From IMG/VR virus record IMGVR_UViG_3300037418_003103: 64,000 bases of DNA; one strand, 5' to 3'. The notes under the pieces were generated by a model. That model was not told where the DNA came from and did not search any database. It was given only the letters and a program-made list of their open reading frames with translations. Source of the stretch: a virus. Its lineage: Duplodnaviria > Heunggongvirae > Uroviricota > Caudoviricetes. Shown here piece after piece: positions 5,830 through 59,019 of the stretch. Position 1 is the stretch's first letter, and each line of letters starts with the position of its first letter. The position numbers and the translations under genes are program-made.

Positions 5830-7947
5830 TTATACTATTTTAACAAATGGCTTAGAGAACTCAGGCCTGATCATTTTCCAAATTTGTTTATCAAGAGCAT
5901 CAGAATAAGAATTAAGCCTGGTAAATAAAAGACTAGTATTCTTGTTTAACTTTGCTGCCTCAGCAAAAGCCTTTCTATTAACAATCTTATAGAAATCCTC
6001 TTCTACCTCAAGCCGAATTATTTCATACTGATGAATGAGTTCATTTGAAGTGTCATGCAACCAGTTAAAAAATTCGTCAGGTACTCTATCCAATAATTCA
6101 TCAAATGGCTTACCCTCTGATAGGTATTCCCAAACGGCTAGATTGGACACCCCTGTAACAATTCGATGCAGTCTGATATACTCATCGAATTTAACCTTAA
6201 CTCTAAATCCATTACTGAACTTAACAACAAACCCTTCTTTATTCTCCTCTTCAAGAGCCTTCAATTCACTTAAGTCATTTACTCCATCATACCTCTTAAC
6301 AATAGGTAAACCTATATCTTCTAATGGAAGATCCAGACCAGTAGCTGTATCTCTAACAGCGATAAGAATCAGATCATCCATTTCACCATATCCACACACG
6401 ATTCTATTTTCAGGATATATGATCTCCACAAGATATGTTTTAGACTTATCCATCTTATATTTTATATCCTTATACTTAGTATGAAGTATTCTATTTGCAT
6501 GCCTGGATTGATCCGAGTTAAAGCTACCCTTAGTTGCTATGTAAATCTCATCATTCAGCCAGTAAAAAATACCAAGCGAATTGTGTACTAATATTCCTTT
6601 TGCAAAATAATTTTTTGTTTCTGTTCCAATATCAAATCCTTTTCTTCCAGACGGAAAATTCCTTTTTGTGCTCTCAATCTTATTAATTGATAAAATTTTC
6701 TTTTCAACTAATTTAAATGATGCTTTACATTCTTTAATTAAATTTTTAAAACCATACGGTTTATCTCTATAAAGGAGTGGTAATTTATACCTCATACATG
6801 GAATTATATATGGCTCAATCGCTTCCCAAAAATTTGTAATTGAATTATCTTTAGACTTGTTTATTCTTATAACCCAACCCTTATGATAGTGAACATTAAA
6901 ATCGATTTGATACATTTCATATAATTTATTACCCAAACGATAACATTCATCTTCCGTAAATGAATTTGTTGCAAATAACGCACGGTCTTCTTGTTTTTCA
7001 CTATGTATAAGAGAACCATCATCCATATACCATTTTGCAACGGTAAAGTCATTAACCCAAGATAAATCTTCAGGTATTATTTTCTTACCTTCTGGATACC
7101 ATAAATCTCTCAATTCTGTTAATTCTGGGTATTCTTTTGTTACGAACCAATGTAATTGGCTACCATAACCAGATACTGATGTTTTTCTTTTAGCTGTATA
7201 ATCTACAAATATTGATTTAAAATAATTTACATATTCCTTATAGTTTTCAGTGTGTGGTTCACTATACTTATGGCCATTAATTCCTTTAACAATACATCCA
7301 TCCCCTAATAAACCTGACTTTATAATATGTAATAAAGGTTCAGGCATTGAATTAGCAAATGTCGATATGCTATCCCCAACTTCACACTCAAATGCAGGTT
7401 TATATTTACCATTAACAAATATATGATGATTATCAGTTACTCTAATAATATTAGGCTTATTAGCACCACCAGATTTTTTTGAAACAGGACAATCTACAGT
7501 AATAGCTAGCCAATTGTTTTTTGTTCCGTTGTCAAAATGTTCTATTACTTTAGACGGTACTAAATTACCCTCTTCATCCATACCTATTAACGTGGGCGTC
7601 AATTTCTTATTGACAATATCGCCTATTAATAATGTTGTACCATCCCAACATTGAATTGGTGTGTCGAACCTAAAGCAACCGTCCATCTTCTCATATACTT
7701 CAAAAGGTAGGTTAGGTATATCCTCAGGTTTGTGTTCAGATATATTAAAGAATTTACTGAAAGGACGAGCAATGATATTCATATCTCCATCCATTATAAG
7801 GCCACGAGTTATGGTTGTAACTTCATCCCATAACTTCATGAACTGAACTTTTTGAGAATAATTATAAATATATAACTCAGCAGATGGATGTTTTTGAACA
7901 TTCACCAGTCTATCTTCAATGTGTCTTAATAGTAATTCTTTATTCAT
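5830..7947 (-). CDS. T4 Rnl1-like RNA ligase interrupted by an intein
   Basis: RGLI, RPFSKFFN, motif I YEKMDG|SLG, ATKGSF, EIIYPENRIV, EGFVV, RVKVK. Confidence 0.92.
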   Translation of the reverse strand: MNKELLLRHIEDRLVNVQKHPSAELYIYNYSQKVQFMKLWDEVTTITRGLIMDGDMNIIARPFSKFFNISEHKPEDIPNLPFEVYEKMDGCFRFDTPIQCWDGTTLLIGDIVNKKLTPTLIGMDEEGNLVPSKVIEHFDNGTKNNWLAITVDCPVSKKSGGANKPNIIRVTDNHHIFVNGKYKPAFECEVGDSISTFANSMPEPLLHIIKSGLLGDGCIVKGINGHKYSEPHTENYKEYVNYFKSIFVDYTAKRKTSVSGYGSQLHWFVTKEYPELTELRDLWYPEGKKIIPEDLSWVNDFTVAKWYMDDGSLIHSEKQEDRALFATNSFTEDECYRLGNKLYEMYQIDFNVHYHKGWVIRINKSKDNSITNFWEAIEPYIIPCMRYKLPLLYRDKPYGFKNLIKECKASFKLVEKKILSINKIESTKRNFPSGRKGFDIGTETKNYFAKGILVHNSLGIFYWLNDEIYIATKGSFNSDQSRHANRILHTKYKDIKYKMDKSKTYLVEIIYPENRIVCGYGEMDDLILIAVRDTATGLDLPLEDIGLPIVKRYDGVNDLSELKALEEENKEGFVVKFSNGFRVKVKFDEYIRLHRIVTGVSNLAVWEYLSEGKPFDELLDRVPDEFFNWLHDTSNELIHQYEIIRLEVEEDFYKIVNRKAFAEAAKLNKNTSLLFTRLNSYSDALDKQIWKMIRPEFSKPFVKIV
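6580..7677 (-). mobile_element. Intein with LAGLIDADG homing endonuclease (366 aa)
   Basis: Starts at Cys91 (CFRFDT), block B VTDNHHIF, motifs GLLGDG and WYMDDG, ends ILVHN followed by Ser. Confidence 0.93.
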
Positions 7948-17703: not shown

Positions 17704-18649
17704 GAGTATTATTTTTGGTGATTAAATTTAACACCTCATTAAAATCATAATCCCTATCCTCGATTCTATTATATAAGTAAGACTCGTATCTATTTAATTC
17801 CTTCACAAATATTTCAAGTGAATAATAGCCTCCAAGGATTTTTTTGTCCAGGGAGCATTCCTTTAATTTCTTAATATCTCTACTAAGACAATCATTTTTA
17901 ATGGTGTTAGTTACTGTAAATACCTTACTTGCTATCATAATTTTATTTTATGATGCAAATATAATATAAGTTTTTTAAAGTACCAAATAACTTATTTAAT
18001 AAGTTAATTAACACAGTACTCGCCAGCGTAGGAATCAATCAAAACTCCTTCCCGTTTCTTGTTAAATACTGAATTAATTGCTGCCAGGTTCAATGACACA
18101 TAAATAATTTGCTGATTAACTTTTAACGACTCCGAAACTAATTCTAATTCTAAGGCTCGGTCTAATTGTTCTTCAAGTTCAATCTTAATAAATTCAATTT
18201 TCTCTTTAAAAATCCATAGACTAGATAAAGAAAAGTGTTCAGAAAGGATTTCTTTGTCCAGTAATTCATAATCAATACGCATAGTTTGGGGTCAATTATT
18301 ATTTATAATTAATTAAAGAACAAATTTACCGTAAAAAAAAATTAAAAACCAAGTAATATATGACTATATTTATCCACAATTTGGGCATACTTATCAACAC
18401 TTTGTTATATTTACTGTGTTTTTTCTGGCGTTTGTGGAACAAATTCCGCGTTTGGCAGCTTAACGCTGTGGTTGTTCATCAACCGCATGCGGAAGGTTTC
18501 TTTTCTAAGTCTACCTTTTAAACTACCCTTAATCCTTTTATACATTACTATATAATCATTGTAGGCCTTATTAGGATCTTTTACACTGAATACTATCATT
18601 ATTTATTAACATTGTTTCCACAAATATACATATTTAAGTTCATAAAAAC

Positions 18650-18679
18650 AAAAAACCGTTAACGATTGCTAACGGTTTA
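18650..18679 (-). terminator. Intrinsic terminator
   Basis: AAACCGTTAG/TTAACGGTTT hairpin plus T-run. Confidence 0.65.
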
Positions 18680-18697
18680 ATTATTTTAATAGATAAA

Positions 18698-30854: not shown

Positions 30855-31100
30855 TTATTTTCGTTGGCCGTCTTTAAAAGCACTTTTCGTTTTATTACTG
30901 AAAGTGATCAGTTCCTGGAGTGTAATTTTTAAATTCTTCAAAGAGTACTCTTCAATAGCACCAATAAGATCACTCAATTCGCAACACTGAAGAATTTTAT
31001 CACTCTGTTCAAACGCATCCTCTAACTCTTGATACTCCTCTGTTATTTTAGAAAATTCTCCAAGAATACCCTTTTCTATTTTTTTATTGTGGTAACCCAT
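30855..31100 (-). CDS. MazG-like helical protein
   Basis: KITEEYQELEDA..ELSDL (EExxE/ExxD pattern). Confidence 0.65.
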   Translation of the reverse strand: MGYHNKKIEKGILGEFSKITEEYQELEDAFEQSDKILQCCELSDLIGAIEEYSLKNLKITLQELITFSNKTKSAFKDGQRK

Positions 31101-31644
31101 TCTCTATTTTATATAATTTTATTAAACTTGATAACCTGGGCTCGGCGCAGCCTGTTCCATAGATCCAATCTAAGCTATAGTGGTTTCTAATACCGTAACT
31201 ACCCAACTCATGGCCATTGTATTCAATATCGTATCCTTTTTCTGTATTTTTAATATAGGTCGCTGGAATAAATTGTTTATAAAAATCAAGGCATAAATCA
31301 ACAATTTTTCTAAGCTCATAATCATTAACTACATCTGTTTTGATCAGTTCATTCTTCATGAAATACTTGCTATGTTCGAAGTCAAAACTCTCAAATCTAA
31401 AACATGGCGTTATGCCTTGAAACTGTCCTAGAGGTAAGAACCCTTTTAAGTATTGATAGATAAATGATTGTTCACCACTAGCTACCAGACACTTATTATT
31501 ATGCTTAAGTTGGAATGATATGACATCTTTAGGCTTAGTGATTTTATCCGTGTACTCACTTACTGCCCAGGGAATTTCAACTCTGGCAAAACCATTATTT
31601 TCATAGTATTCGCTACTAAGGCCAAGAAGTTTATAATTAATCAT
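31084..31644 (-). CDS. Stand-alone class II aminoacyl-tRNA synthetase-like catalytic core
   Basis: LVASGEQSF, TPCFRFE (motif 2), YFMKNEL, ELGSYG, GTGCAEPR (motif 3); no anticodon-binding domain. Confidence 0.7.
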   Translation of the reverse strand: MINYKLLGLSSEYYENNGFARVEIPWAVSEYTDKITKPKDVISFQLKHNNKCLVASGEQSFIYQYLKGFLPLGQFQGITPCFRFESFDFEHSKYFMKNELIKTDVVNDYELRKIVDLCLDFYKQFIPATYIKNTEKGYDIEYNGHELGSYGIRNHYSLDWIYGTGCAEPRLSSLIKLYKIENGLPQ

Positions 31645-44597: not shown

Positions 44598-44807
44598 TTA
44601 AGCTTCTTTTATCATTCCAAGGATTTCTCTTGGAGATACAAGAGTACACTTCTCTTGTATCTCCTTTATTCTTCTCTTGGGAATATCGTAGTGATTCTTG
44701 TGAAACCAGCATTTTTTAATCCCAAGCAACTCACCCATTAAATGCAGGTTCTCTATTGAATACGGTATGCATATCAGATGTCTCTGTTTATCACAGAAGT
44801 ACTTCAT
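44598..44807 (-). CDS. DUF4031-like protein
   Basis: NLH.M...LGIKKCWFH..HYDIP. Confidence 0.65.
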   Translation of the reverse strand: MKYFCDKQRHLICIPYSIENLHLMGELLGIKKCWFHKNHYDIPKRRIKEIQEKCTLVSPREILGMIKEA

Positions 44808-45665: not shown

Positions 45666-45684
45666 TTAATTTATATTTTACTTG

Positions 45685-45755
45685 TAGCACCACTAAGATT
45701 CGAACTTAGTCGTCGAAAATCAAAATTTCGCATGCTGCCGTTACATCATGGTGCA
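45685..45755 (-). tRNA. tRNA-Gln(TTG)
   Basis: CGAAA-TTTTGAT-TTTCG anticodon arm; GTTCGAATC T-arm. Confidence 0.88.
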
Positions 45756-46120
45756 ATTTTACTCCAAATTCTATTTTCCAGGTCCTTATAAAAGGGTTCA
45801 GGGATCTTTATTCCTCTTGACTCAAAATCCTCTACAATTTCCTGCTTCCTAAAAGTACCTTCAACTACACCATCACTCCAAAGGTTGACATGCAACCCCC
45901 AACTCTTCTTAGCTGTTATTACAGCCCTGGTTATGTTCGGATGGCGGGTAATAACCTCAAATATATCATTACTCTTAAATTCTCCATTATCAAATCTCTT
46001 AAAGGCTTCCTTTCCTGAGAATGAACCAGTTCCTTGTTTGAATCTGTAGTCCAGATTCAGATCACATCCACAAAAGATAAGTAACCCACTTCTATATGAC
46101 TTCAGAAAGAATGAGAACAT
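45746..46120 (-). CDS. Hypothetical protein (possibly frameshifted 5' end)
   Basis: Frame stays open about 40 codons upstream without a start codon. Confidence 0.5.
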   Translation of the reverse strand: MFSFFLKSYRSGLLIFCGCDLNLDYRFKQGTGSFSGKEAFKRFDNGEFKSNDIFEVITRHPNITRAVITAKKSWGLHVNLWSDGVVEGTFRKQEIVEDFESRGIKIPEPFYKDLENRIWSKIAP

Positions 46121-46253: not shown

Positions 46254-46514
46254 TTAGGGTATTATTCCAAGTGATTTTAATTCTTTTTCAATACCTCTTC
46301 CCTCCTTATTGGAGGCGGTACAAAAGCACTGTACCGCCTCAGCTACTGCGACCTCTACATCATCGTCATAAGCCGCAATTGTATTCAGTTTGAACAATGG
46401 TATGTCAACGTCCAAGTAACCCATTCTTTGAGTTGTAATTACTGGCGTTAGGACACTATAGCTCCTTCCAGGAAGATCCATTGTTATATTCATTACTTTA
46501 TTATCATTCTCCAT
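46254..46514 (-). CDS. Hypothetical protein
   Basis: 86-aa ORF inside the tRNA array. Confidence 0.5.
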   Translation of the reverse strand: MENDNKVMNITMDLPGRSYSVLTPVITTQRMGYLDVDIPLFKLNTIAAYDDDVEVAVAEAVQCFCTASNKEGRGIEKELKSLGIIP

Positions 46515-47231: not shown

Positions 47232-48039
47232 GGAGACGTGGGGCTCGAAACATACTTTTCTTTAATTATTTGGTATTTATTAATATGAAGCCAAAATACA
47301 CTAATAAAGAATTTGAAGAAGCAACTTCAACCACAGAATTACCTTGCGAATGTTACCAATGTTCAAATACATTTCTTAAAATTAAAAAACATATAACTTT
47401 TGAACTTAAACACAATGTCGGTGAGTGTAAATTTTGCTCACAACAGTGTTTATCTAATTTTAAAAATAAGAAAATTAGTGTTAATTGTTCAAATTGTTCA
47501 AAGACCTTTAAAAAAAACAAACATAGAATGAAATTATCATTAAATCATTTCTGTTCACGCTCATGCTCCGCAACCTATAATAACATTCATAAAACTTACG
47601 GCACTAGAAGGTCAAAATTGGAATGTTGGTTAGAGCAACAACTCACCGCATTATACCCTACCATCCATTTTGATTTCAACAAGAAAACTATTATCAAGTC
47701 TGAGCTAGATATTTACATACCATCATTATCATTAGCATTTGAATTAAACGGTATCTTTCATTACGAACCCATATTCGGCATTAAAAAACTTAACCAAACA
47801 CAGAACAACGATATTTCCAAAAGTAAAGCTTGCTTTGACGCAAAAGTTGACCTTTGTATTATAGATGTTTCATCTCAAAATTATTTCAAAGAACCTTCCA
47901 GTATCAAATTTTTAGATATCATCCGAAAAATTATTGATGACCGCTTGTTAACATCTTAGCCGCTATAAAAATAACGTTACCAGCAAACACCTCTTGGCGG
48001 TGGGTTAACTTAGTTTGCCTAGGAGACGTGGGGCTCGAA
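47232..48039. mobile_element. Endonuclease cassette flanked by an 18-bp direct repeat of a tRNA 3' end
   Basis: ggagacgtggggctcgaa at 47232-47249 and 48022-48039. Confidence 0.75.
47285..47959 (+). CDS. Zinc-finger plus PD-(D/E)XK (Vsr/DUF559-like) homing-type endonuclease
   Basis: CxxC/FCSxxC repeats; ELDIYIP..AFELNG.FH; antisense to the array. Confidence 0.8.
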   Translation: MKPKYTNKEFEEATSTTELPCECYQCSNTFLKIKKHITFELKHNVGECKFCSQQCLSNFKNKKISVNCSNCSKTFKKNKHRMKLSLNHFCSRSCSATYNNIHKTYGTRRSKLECWLEQQLTALYPTIHFDFNKKTIIKSELDIYIPSLSLAFELNGIFHYEPIFGIKKLNQTQNNDISKSKACFDAKVDLCIIDVSSQNYFKEPSSIKFLDIIRKIIDDRLLTS

Positions 48040-48094
48040 CCCACCTGACCTGATACCCTTCCGACACGGTATAAGCGTGAGGGGATAGACTCCA
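48020..48094 (-). tRNA. Atypical D-armless tRNA-Ile(TAT)-like RNA
   Basis: CACG-CTTATAC-CGTG arm, GTGGG-TTCGAGC-CCCAC T-arm, no D-stem. Confidence 0.6.
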
Positions 48095-48178: not shown

Positions 48179-48184
48179 AATTTG

Positions 48185-48258
48185 TGGTCCCTGCTGGATT
48201 CGAACCAGCGGCCCTTGGTTTGTAATACCAATGCTCTAACCAACTGAGCTAAAGGACT
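48185..48258 (-). tRNA. tRNA-Val(TAC)
   Basis: TTGGT-ATTACAA-ACCAA. Confidence 0.9.
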
Positions 48259-48259
48259 A

Positions 48260-48298
48260 TGGAGCCGAGAGGCAGCATCCCTGCCTGTTCAACTCGGC
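48260..48298 (-). ncRNA. 39-nt CCA-terminated tRNA minihelix-like RNA
   Basis: GCCGAG-TTGAAC-AGGCAG-GGATG-CTGCCT-CTCGGC-T-CCA. Confidence 0.55.
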
Positions 48299-48534
48299 AT
48301 ATACTCTTTATAATTTTATTCAAAATAATCTGTCGCAATAACCAACTCATCTAATTTCTTTTTACTAACCTTCTTTGCTATTATCTTAAGATCATACTCT
48401 TCCCACCTAATTTGTGCTTTACGAATTGCTTCCTCTTCTGATTCGGCAAGAGTATAACAATACATTGGTGTTTTTGCTCCTTTCATTATAGGTATAAATA
48501 CAAAATATAATTCATTCATTTGTTAATTTTTTTG

Positions 48535-58687: not shown

Positions 58688-58966
58688 TATTTTGTTTAAC
58701 TAAAATTTAATTAAAAATATTTTTAAATAAAGTCTAGTTCATAAGAACGGCCACCACTCTTTTATATTTATTGGCGTTCTTTTTATTATATTAGAGTATT
58801 TGTTATCCTATAAGCTATACCAAAATGTGAAGTGCTTAATTTGTCGTGATTTGATTTACAGTTATTGTAGAGACTTGATGAATCAGCATACAAATGCTCT
58901 GCAATTGTTTTGAATTGTATAAGCGTTATCATTTGGTAAGTTTATAATAATAAATAGTTATATAAT

Positions 58967-58997
58967 TAAAAAAGCCCAACAAAATGTTGGACTTTTT
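58967..58997. terminator. Intrinsic terminator
   Basis: AAAAAGCCCAACA/TGTTGGACTTTTT. Confidence 0.7.
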
Positions 58998-59019
58998 AAT
59001 TATATAAATAAGATTTTTA

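What the first reader, a model, noticed from the sequence alone, without database searches (positions are those of the whole stretch)
48260..48298. 39-nt CCA-ended minihelix RNA inside the tRNA array
Seen: GCCGAG/CTCGGC (6 bp), a 6-nt bulge, AGGCAG/CTGCCT (6 bp), then U-CCA, ending 1 nt before tRNA-Val. It is GC-rich and perfectly paired in an AT-rich genome. Established: 12 bp equals the acceptor-plus-T-arm stack measured by tRNA-processing enzymes and EF-Tu, and G1-C72/C2-G71/C3-G70 resembles Thr identity elements. Inference: an anticodon-less tRNA mimic, either a decoy for tRNA-targeting toxins or an amino-acid donor.
Basis: partly seen in the sequence, partly recalled or inferred. Interest (0 to 1): 0.75.

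Follow-up and report, generated by a model that had tools for sequence, protein, structure and literature searches.

The report
tRNA-derived CCA-ended minihelix in phage array
A 39-base, GC-rich hairpin ending in CCA sits like a gene in a soil jumbo phage's tRNA cluster; it looks like a tRNA reduced to its acceptor end, but its function, if it has one, has not been shown.

Summary
It has a 6-bp outer stem, a 6-nt bulge, a 6-bp inner stem, a 5-nt loop, then U-CCA. One base later tRNA-Val begins.

It is not a terminator: there is no U-tract, while the window's real terminators have one. It matches no Rfam family.

The only syntenic relative found is Logan contig L002. It has an element at the same place, after the ORF67 ortholog. 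That element carries an 18/18 match to the D-arm of T5 tRNA-Leu, and a hairpin at the position of the window's inner stem with one compensatory pair change. The contig ends before the 3' strand and any CCA could be seen.

I surveyed the 5' flanks of 229 phage tRNAs. Only one other strong NCCA-ended hairpin abuts a tRNA (L042), also U-CCA plus 1 nt, in an unrelated phage. In both phages most or all tRNA genes examined lack an encoded CCA.

Best reading (0.42): a tRNA-derived, anticodon-less minihelix, excised by the tRNA-processing enzymes and acting through its acceptor end. Rivals are a decaying tRNA relic (0.30) and a cis-acting 3'-end cap for ORF67 mRNA (0.20). The decoy and amino-acid-donor roles are untested.

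Closest known: the stable tRNA-like RNAs of unknown function in the T4 and T5 tRNA clusters.

The parts
48260..48298 (-). 39-nt minihelix: 6-bp acceptor-type stem, 6-nt bulge, 6-bp hairpin in the position of a T arm (5-nt loop, no T-loop motif), U discriminator, encoded CCA
48293..48298 (-). outer stem, 5' strand (G1-G6); predicted RNase P cut immediately 5' of 48298, where U is at -1
   Evidence: the cut site is inferred from known RNase P preferences
48287..48292 (-). 6-nt bulge UUGAAC; aligns with the GGAAC of the D-loop-like segment in L002
48270..48286 (-). inner stem-loop AGGCAG / GGAUG / CUGCCU; L002 has AGACAGU / GGCCG / AUUGUCU at the same position
48260..48269 (-). outer stem 3' strand, U73 and CCA
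   Evidence: of the 14 tRNA and tRNA-like genes listed in the array, only tRNA-Asp also encodes CCA
48259..48259 (-). single spacer U between the CCA and tRNA-Val +1
48184..48258 (-). tRNA-Val(UAC), with an A1-C72 mismatch; its RNase P site would create the 3' end of the minihelix
48299..48315 (-). 17-nt AU-rich spacer between the ORF67 stop codon and G1; no promoter-like or terminator-like site called
48316..48519 (-). ORF67, a small beta-beta-alpha-beta-alpha protein of unknown function; its ortholog precedes the related element in L002

Best explanation
This is a tRNA-derived gene for an anticodon-less minihelix RNA. It descends from a tRNA that occupied this slot of the array; the relative points to a class II, tRNA-Leu-like ancestor. 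The D, anticodon and variable arms are gone. What remains is an acceptor-type stem stacked on a hairpin in the place of the T arm, 12 base pairs in all, followed by U and a genomically encoded CCA. It is co-transcribed with tRNA-Ala, ORF67, tRNA-Val and tRNA-Gly. RNase P is predicted to cut 5' of G48298 (U at -1, G1-C72, a 12-bp stack, NCCA) and 5' of tRNA-Val. That would release about 40 nt, which exonucleases would trim to the CCA end. With no anticodon, D arm or T-loop it cannot decode. Any activity must therefore come from the acceptor helix and CCA end, as a mimic offered to proteins that read only that part of a tRNA. Such proteins include CCA-tail nucleases, CCA-modifying toxins, the CCA-adding enzyme and some synthetases. 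What is shown: the anatomy, the position, the tRNA ancestry of the relative, and the rarity of encoded CCA. What is inferred: transcription, excision, stability and any partner.
For: The structure is stable and dominant. It is the third strongest local fold in 64 kb and 64% G+C in a 33% G+C window. It is placed like a tRNA gene, with an AU leader before G1 and the next tRNA 1 nt after the CCA. CCA is encoded in only 1 of the 14 tRNA and tRNA-like genes listed in the array, yet it is encoded here. Model hairpin substrates lean on the CCA contact with RNase P (established knowledge). L002 has DNMK 75% identical and ORF67 58% identical. It carries an element at the same place after ORF67. That element has an 18/18 match to the D-arm of T5 tRNA-Leu. 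Its 12-13-nt D-loop motif was found only in tRNA-Leu(-like) genes across 0.48 Mb of phage loci. It also has a hairpin at the inner-stem position with one G:C to A:U double change and a GGNNG loop; the global alignment has P about 0.01. Among the 5' flanks of 229 phage tRNAs, only this element and L042:5083-5115 are strong NCCA-ended hairpins abutting a tRNA. Both are U-CCA plus 1 nt, and the two tRNA genes beside the L042 element also lack an encoded CCA. Of the three strongest hairpins ending within 5 nt of a tRNA, two carry UCCA. Truncated acceptor-stem hairpins with CCA are cleaved by the tRNA-tail nuclease Cas12a3 (PMC12851939).
Against: There is no RNA evidence: no RNA run holds this DNA. 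Only one relative exists, and its contig ends 2 nt into the predicted outer 3' strand, so neither outer-stem compensation nor the CCA can be checked. Local sequence similarity to L002 is not significant (P 0.35). A 6-bp hairpin somewhere in 40 nt arises by chance in 42% of shuffles, and at that exact position in 3%. The 5-nt loop is not a T-loop, so recognition of the elbow by RNase P or the CCA-adding enzyme would be weak. The array contains other aberrant tRNA-like genes, which fits ongoing decay. The L042 element is an analogue, not a homologue, and the survey test was chosen after the result had been seen.
Confidence: 0.42

Rival explanations
1. It is a decaying pseudogene. A tRNA (Leu-like) at this slot lost its anticodon arm in the common ancestor with L002 and has since been shortened by deletions. 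The two helices and the CCA are simply what the deletions left, and the remnant does nothing.
For: L002 shows a longer, already non-canonical version at the same site. The window version aligns to it only with several gaps. The array holds other odd tRNA-like genes: a two-base anticodon call, a 9-nt anticodon loop and a D-armless Ile-like gene. The helices equal the acceptor stem (6 of 7) and the T stem (5 of 5) of a widespread bacterial tRNA-Phe, as expected if they were inherited from a real tRNA. The T-loop position is degenerate.
Against: All 12 pairs are Watson-Crick and 9 are G:C, in a genome under strong AT pressure. CCA is kept here although 13 of the 14 listed tRNA and tRNA-like genes have lost it. 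The inner helix differs from that of L002 by a compensated change. The D-arm of the L002 element is still identical to T5 tRNA-Leu over 18 nt, which is unlike free decay. An independent UCCA hairpin sits in the same position in L042.
Confidence: 0.3
2. It is a cis-acting boundary element. RNase P cuts only at tRNA-Val, and the hairpin with its CCA tail stays on the ORF67 mRNA as a tRNA-like 3' cap. The cap would block 3' exonucleases, as the t-elements of plant mitochondria define mRNA ends.
For: It follows ORF67 by 17 nt here and by 25 nt in L002. ORF67 is embedded between tRNAs, so its mRNA ends must be made by tRNA processing. More distant ORF67 homologues lie in ordinary operons and have no such hairpin. 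t-elements are a precedent (PMC1920247, listed).
Against: In L042 the analogous hairpin has no ORF upstream on its strand. Other ORF-to-tRNA junctions in this array (ORF90 to tRNA-Arg, ORF62 to tRNA-Trp) have no comparable G+C-rich hairpin. A plain stabiliser needs neither a 12-bp stack nor a CCA. U at -1 and G1-C72 make a cut at G1 likely.
Confidence: 0.2
3. It is an intrinsic terminator or another signal read on either strand.
For: It is a strong G+C-rich hairpin directly after a stop codon.
Against: There is no U-tract on the minus strand. Hairpins with a T-run on the minus strand, as an intrinsic terminator has, lie at 49325-49303, 916-955, 58963-59002 and 18646-18685. The consensus scan calls nothing here on either strand. 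A tRNA gene starts 6 nt after the stem.
Confidence: 0.03

Closest known systems
Stable tRNA-like RNAs of phage tRNA clusters: T4 rnaC and rnaD (species 1 and 2), and T5 RNA I, III, IV, 1, 2 and 3
   Same: They are non-tRNA genes interleaved with tRNA genes on the same strand. They are annotated as stable, and some as tRNA-like, RNAs of unknown function (PMC3014915). T4 rnaC keeps a T arm and closing stem, and rnaD ends in CACC. The window's phage has a T5 A1-like protein.
   Different: Those RNAs are 73-170 nt, and one T5 species is 719 nt. They have complex folds and no sequence similarity to this element. The element here is 39 nt, two stacked helices and a complete encoded CCA.
Synthetic acceptor/T-arm minihelices and hairpin model substrates of RNase P, the CCA-adding enzyme and synthetases
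   Same: A 12-bp stack, NCCA, G1-C72 and the bulge at the 7/49 junction. Minihelices are charged by HisRS, and U73 alone confers Cys identity on minihelices (PMC9976931).
   Different: Those are laboratory constructs with a true T-loop or a tetraloop. This one is genomically encoded, with a 5-nt non-T loop.
Natural non-tRNA RNase P substrates of phages (P1/P7 C4 antisense RNA, phi80 M3 RNA)
   Same: Small phage RNAs whose 5' end is made by RNase P on an acceptor-like stem with a CCA-type tail (recalled from memory, not tested here).
   Different: They are not in tRNA arrays. C4 acts by antisense pairing, and no target complementarity was sought or found here.
t-elements of plant mitochondria
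   Same: tRNA-like stem-loops next to coding regions that are used by RNase P and RNase Z to define mRNA ends (PMC1920247).
   Different: They occur in an organelle, are larger and carry no encoded CCA. They are relevant only to the cis-acting rival.
Partial tRNA genes left by integrative elements (PMC9897764)
   Same: tRNA gene fragments found in prokaryotic genomes.
   Different: Those are contiguous 3' or 5' pieces. This element keeps both strands of the acceptor stem and lacks the interior.

Membership tests
tRNA (Rfam RF00005 / ARAGORN) | Cloverleaf with D, anticodon and T arms, scored by the covariance model | tested here: not met
   There is no RF00005 hit, even when only 66 nt were searched at E up to 10. 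ARAGORN does not call it.
tRNA (Rfam RF00005 / ARAGORN) | Acceptor stem closed by the 5' and 3' ends, discriminator, CCA, with a hairpin directly 5' of the acceptor 3' strand | tested here: met
tRNA (Rfam RF00005 / ARAGORN) | T-loop motif (UUCRANN, 7 nt) | tested here: not met
   The loop is GGAUG, 5 nt.
Intrinsic terminator | G+C-rich hairpin followed at once by a U-tract | tested here: not met
   The tail is UCCAUAGUCC. The scan calls nothing here, and the hairpins with a T-run elsewhere in the window show what a terminator there looks like.
RNase P hairpin substrate | About 12 stacked pairs, G+1 paired to C72, 3' NCCA and a pyrimidine (U) at -1 | tested here: met
   Sequence features only. 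Cleavage itself is not testable with these tools.
RNase P hairpin substrate | Cleavage by RNase P in vitro or in vivo | not testable with these tools
   No RNA run holds this DNA.
Conserved structured RNA (covariation support) | Compensatory changes in homologues | tested here: inconclusive
   There is one partial homologue (L002). It shows one double change and one G:C to G.U change in the inner helix. The outer 3' strand is cut off by the contig end.
Bacterial tRNA-Gly acceptor identity | U73, G1-C72, C2-G71, G3-C70 | tested here: not met
   Three of four are present; position 3-70 is C-G. The L042 analogue has all four.
T4/T5 stable array RNAs | Sequence or structural homology to rnaC, rnaD or T5 RNA I-IV | tested here: not met
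   A search of the phage collection with 821 nt around the element found only tRNA matches. The folds differ.

The most novel reading that the evidence does not exclude
Phages whose tRNA genes lack CCA encode small CCA-ended acceptor minihelices as a separate class of array gene. The released hairpins would act as decoys for immunity that attacks the tRNA 3' end (Cas12a3-type tail nucleases, CapRel-type pyrophosphokinases, MenT-type nucleotidyltransferases). Alternatively they would be charged and used as amino-acid carriers, possibly by the phage's anticodon-domain-less class II synthetase-like protein.
Probability: 0.12. Interest if true: 0.85.

Novelty: new variant of a known kind. Interest (0 to 1): 0.5.

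Why it matters
Small stable RNAs of unknown function have been known in the T4 and T5 tRNA clusters for about fifty years. A 39-nt version reduced to the acceptor helix and CCA would be the simplest member of that group. It would show that the acceptor end alone is the useful part. Several bacterial defences are now known to attack exactly this part of tRNA, so a natural minihelix is a testable candidate for a counter-measure or a carrier. If it is only a relic, it still documents how array tRNAs decay by losing internal arms.

Tried and rejected
- **Rfam:** no family matches the element or the end of L002.
- **Close relatives:**
  - A distant search of the phage collection gave only tRNA matches.
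  - The exact two-stem pattern gave 0 hits in IMG/VR.
  - ORF67, ORF212 and the ORF67 alignment gave nothing in IMG/VR.
  - The ORF67 alignment gave nothing in JGI metagenomes.
  - A lineage-specific tRNA-Arg 31-mer gave 0 hits in both collections.
- **Sequencing runs:** six DNA runs hold the stretch, and no RNA holder is listed. Laying four of them gave only identical pieces and no variants at the element.
- **Extending L002:** an exact look-up of its ORF67 found only the same contig.
- **ORF124 homologues:** these led to other phages' arrays (L007, L044, L045), not to the L002 lineage.
- **tRNA-Val flanks:** the upstream flanks of 28 IMG/VR tRNA-Val-like genes sharing the same 5' 19-mer show no minihelix.
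- **ORF67 fold:** there is no significant PDB match.
- **Homologues of L042:** none were found.
- **tRNA-Phe origin:** more than 120 bacterial genomes carry a tRNA-Phe with identical acceptor 3' strand and T stem. I do not rely on this. The acceptor is equally that of phage tRNA-Leu(UAA). A 5-bp T-stem match across 185,000 species could be chance.
- **Other strong hairpins:** the two strongest hairpins of the window (46312-46351 and 44626-44665) also read ...UCCA on the tRNA strand. However, there the UC or UCC is paired inside longer stems that lie within ORFs. They are not the same kind of element.

Full report
**Observation**

All 13 tRNAs that ARAGORN finds in the window lie on the minus strand.
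- a 6-bp outer stem (GCCGAG/CUCGGC);
- a 6-nt bulge;
- a 6-bp inner stem (AGGCAG/CUGCCU) with a 5-nt loop;
- then U and CCA.

One base later, at 48258, tRNA-Val(UAC) begins.

The fold has -19.4 kcal/mol, takes 83% of the ensemble, and has z = -2.84. It is the third most stable 40-nt fold on either strand of the window. The element is 64% G+C in a window of 32.6%. A motif of two stacked helices with at least 12 Watson-Crick pairs followed by NCCA occurs once in the window. Shuffled windows give 0.075 on average.

**Surroundings**

Upstream lies ORF67 (48519-48316), separated by 17 AU-rich bases. Upstream of that are tRNA-Ala and tRNA-Arg.

No promoter-like or terminator-like site is called at the element on either strand. 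The hairpins with a T-run elsewhere in the window show what a terminator there looks like, and this one has none.

The genome is a jumbo phage: its longest contig is 345 kb. It comes from rhizosphere metagenomes. It has a T5 A1-like protein whose nearest relatives, at 43-44% identity, are in phages of Flavobacteriia.

Of the 14 tRNA and tRNA-like genes listed in the array, only tRNA-Asp encodes CCA.

**What it is not**

- No Rfam family matches, not even the tRNA model in a 66-nt search.
- It is not a terminator.
- It is not repeated elsewhere in the window or in 0.46 Mb of fetched loci.

**Relatives**

The lineage is nearly absent from public collections. One syntenic relative was reached through the dNMP kinase gene: Logan contig L002. 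Its kinase is 75% identical and its ORF67 is 58% identical. The order tRNA-Trp, tRNA-Arg, tRNA-Ala, ORF67 is kept.

After a 25-nt AU spacer, L002 has a 40-nt stretch and then the contig ends. That stretch has these features:
- It starts GUAGAG.
- It then has 18 bases identical to positions 8-25 of T5 tRNA-Leu(UAG).
- Its D-loop motif occurred only in tRNA-Leu or tRNA-Leu-like genes in 0.48 Mb of phage loci.
- It has no anticodon arm. Instead it forms a 7-bp hairpin (AGACAGU/AUUGUCU, loop GGCCG) where the window has its inner stem.
- It is followed by CU, the first two bases expected of an outer 3' strand.

Against the window, that helix shows one G:C to A:U double change and one G:C to G.U change.

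This evidence is thin:
- A global alignment is better than 99% of shuffles, but a local one is not significant.
- A 6-bp hairpin somewhere in 40 nt is common by chance (42%).
- A 6-bp hairpin at that exact position is less common (3%).
- The outer-stem partner and any CCA lie beyond the contig end, and I found no way to extend it.

More distant ORF67 homologues sit in ordinary operons without tRNAs or hairpins.

**Origin**

The element is best read as the remnant of a tRNA, with the hairpin occupying the T-arm position.

The relative points to a class II, Leu-like ancestor. [quoted passage not shown] The L002 form, which has an intact D-arm, could therefore even be a leucine acceptor. The window form, with no D-arm and U73, could not.

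Both helices of the window element are also identical to the acceptor stem and T stem of a widespread bacterial tRNA-Phe. Given the size of that search, and the same acceptor in phage tRNA-Leu(UAA), I treat the isotype as unresolved.

**Is it more than a relic?**

I folded the 48 nt upstream of every tRNA in the fetched phage arrays. Of the three strongest hairpins ending within 5 nt of a tRNA, two end in UCCA plus one base: this element and L042:5083-5115.

A CCA-anchored scan of 229 flanks, now including T4, T5, River4 and nt-1, found only these two. L042 is an unrelated, G+C-rich viral contig. Its hairpin has z = -4.1. It carries the full bacterial tRNA-Gly acceptor set. No ORF lies upstream on its strand.

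In L042 the two neighbouring tRNA genes lack an encoded CCA, as do 13 of the 14 listed in the window's array. An encoded CCA is what a hairpin substrate without a tRNA elbow would need for RNase P. This, the perfect G+C-rich pairing under AT pressure, and the compensated change argue for function. The degenerate loop, the gapped alignment and the other aberrant tRNA-like genes of the array argue for decay.

**Mechanism**

The most likely course, at 0.42, has four steps:
1. The element is co-transcribed with its neighbours.
2. RNase P cuts at G48298 and at tRNA-Val +1.
3. Exonucleases trim the 3' end to the CCA.
4. A small hairpin results that can only act through its acceptor end.

[quoted passage not shown] The decoy idea is therefore reasonable, but it is untested.

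The acceptor identity is ambiguous: 3 of 4 for Gly, 3 of 4 for Thr, and U73 as in Cys.

The 186-aa protein at 31084-31644 has a class II synthetase-core fold and belongs to a large viral family. Nothing links it to this RNA.

**Comparison and verdict**

The closest known things are the stable, partly tRNA-like RNAs of unknown function annotated in the T4 and T5 tRNA clusters. This element is far smaller and simpler, and shares no sequence with them. I rate it a new variant of a known kind. The interest is moderate, because the evidence for function rests on one truncated homologue and one analogue.

Noticed in passing
window 47947-48019 (-) and 48020-48094 (-): There is an HDV-like ribozyme hit (RF02682, 38.9 bits; the gathering score is 44). 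It starts directly after a 75-nt D-armless tRNA-like gene with a UAU loop that ARAGORN does not call. The arrangement is that of the theta ribozymes described next to tRNAs in gut phages (PMC10879173), here in a soil jumbo phage.
   Followed up: partly
window 31084-31644 (-): This 186-aa protein has a sub-threshold Pfam hit to the class II aaRS core (E 0.0024). Structural matches (TM 0.78-0.87) are to SerRS, PylRS and HisRS cores. It belongs to viral clusters of 50-120 members each and has no anticodon-binding domain.
   Followed up: partly
window 45746-46120 (-); L007, L045: ORF124 has about 30 homologues at roughly 50% identity. The three loci fetched were phage contigs, and two of them (L007, L045) place it inside or beside large tRNA arrays. 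It appears to be an array-associated protein family with no known domain.
   Followed up: partly
L003 (ENA contig, 93.7 kb): This relative has the same DnaJ-ClpP-DNMK block. It also carries a tmRNA, two tRNAs with a CUA anticodon, an RF-1 domain gene, a PTH2-like gene and a CCA-adding-type nucleotidyltransferase. That set suggests reassignment of the UAG stop codon.
   Followed up: no
L042 4702-4784 (+): An 83-nt element matches both ends of the tmRNA model (61.5 bits) with the interior missing. It looks like a stand-alone tmRNA-type tRNA-like domain. It lies 300 nt upstream of the second UCCA hairpin.
   Followed up: no
window 46312-46351 and 44626-44665: The two most stable hairpins of the window (11 and 13 bp) also lie in the tRNA array on the tRNA strand. 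They sit inside ORF86 and ORF79. Each pairs a GAGG or GGAG run with CCUC or CUCC.
   Followed up: partly
window 48184-48258 and 45684-45755 (-): tRNA-Val has an A1-C72 mismatch and tRNA-Gln has a U1-U72 mismatch at the top of the acceptor stem.
   Followed up: no
window 5830-7947 (-): An Rnl1-type RNA ligase is interrupted by a LAGLIDADG homing-endonuclease domain, which suggests an intein.
   Followed up: no
L018 7165-7310, L001 13690-13830: These tRNA-Leu-like genes have large internal insertions and are not called by ARAGORN. The one in L001 resembles the intron-bearing tRNA-Leu(UAA) type.
   Followed up: no
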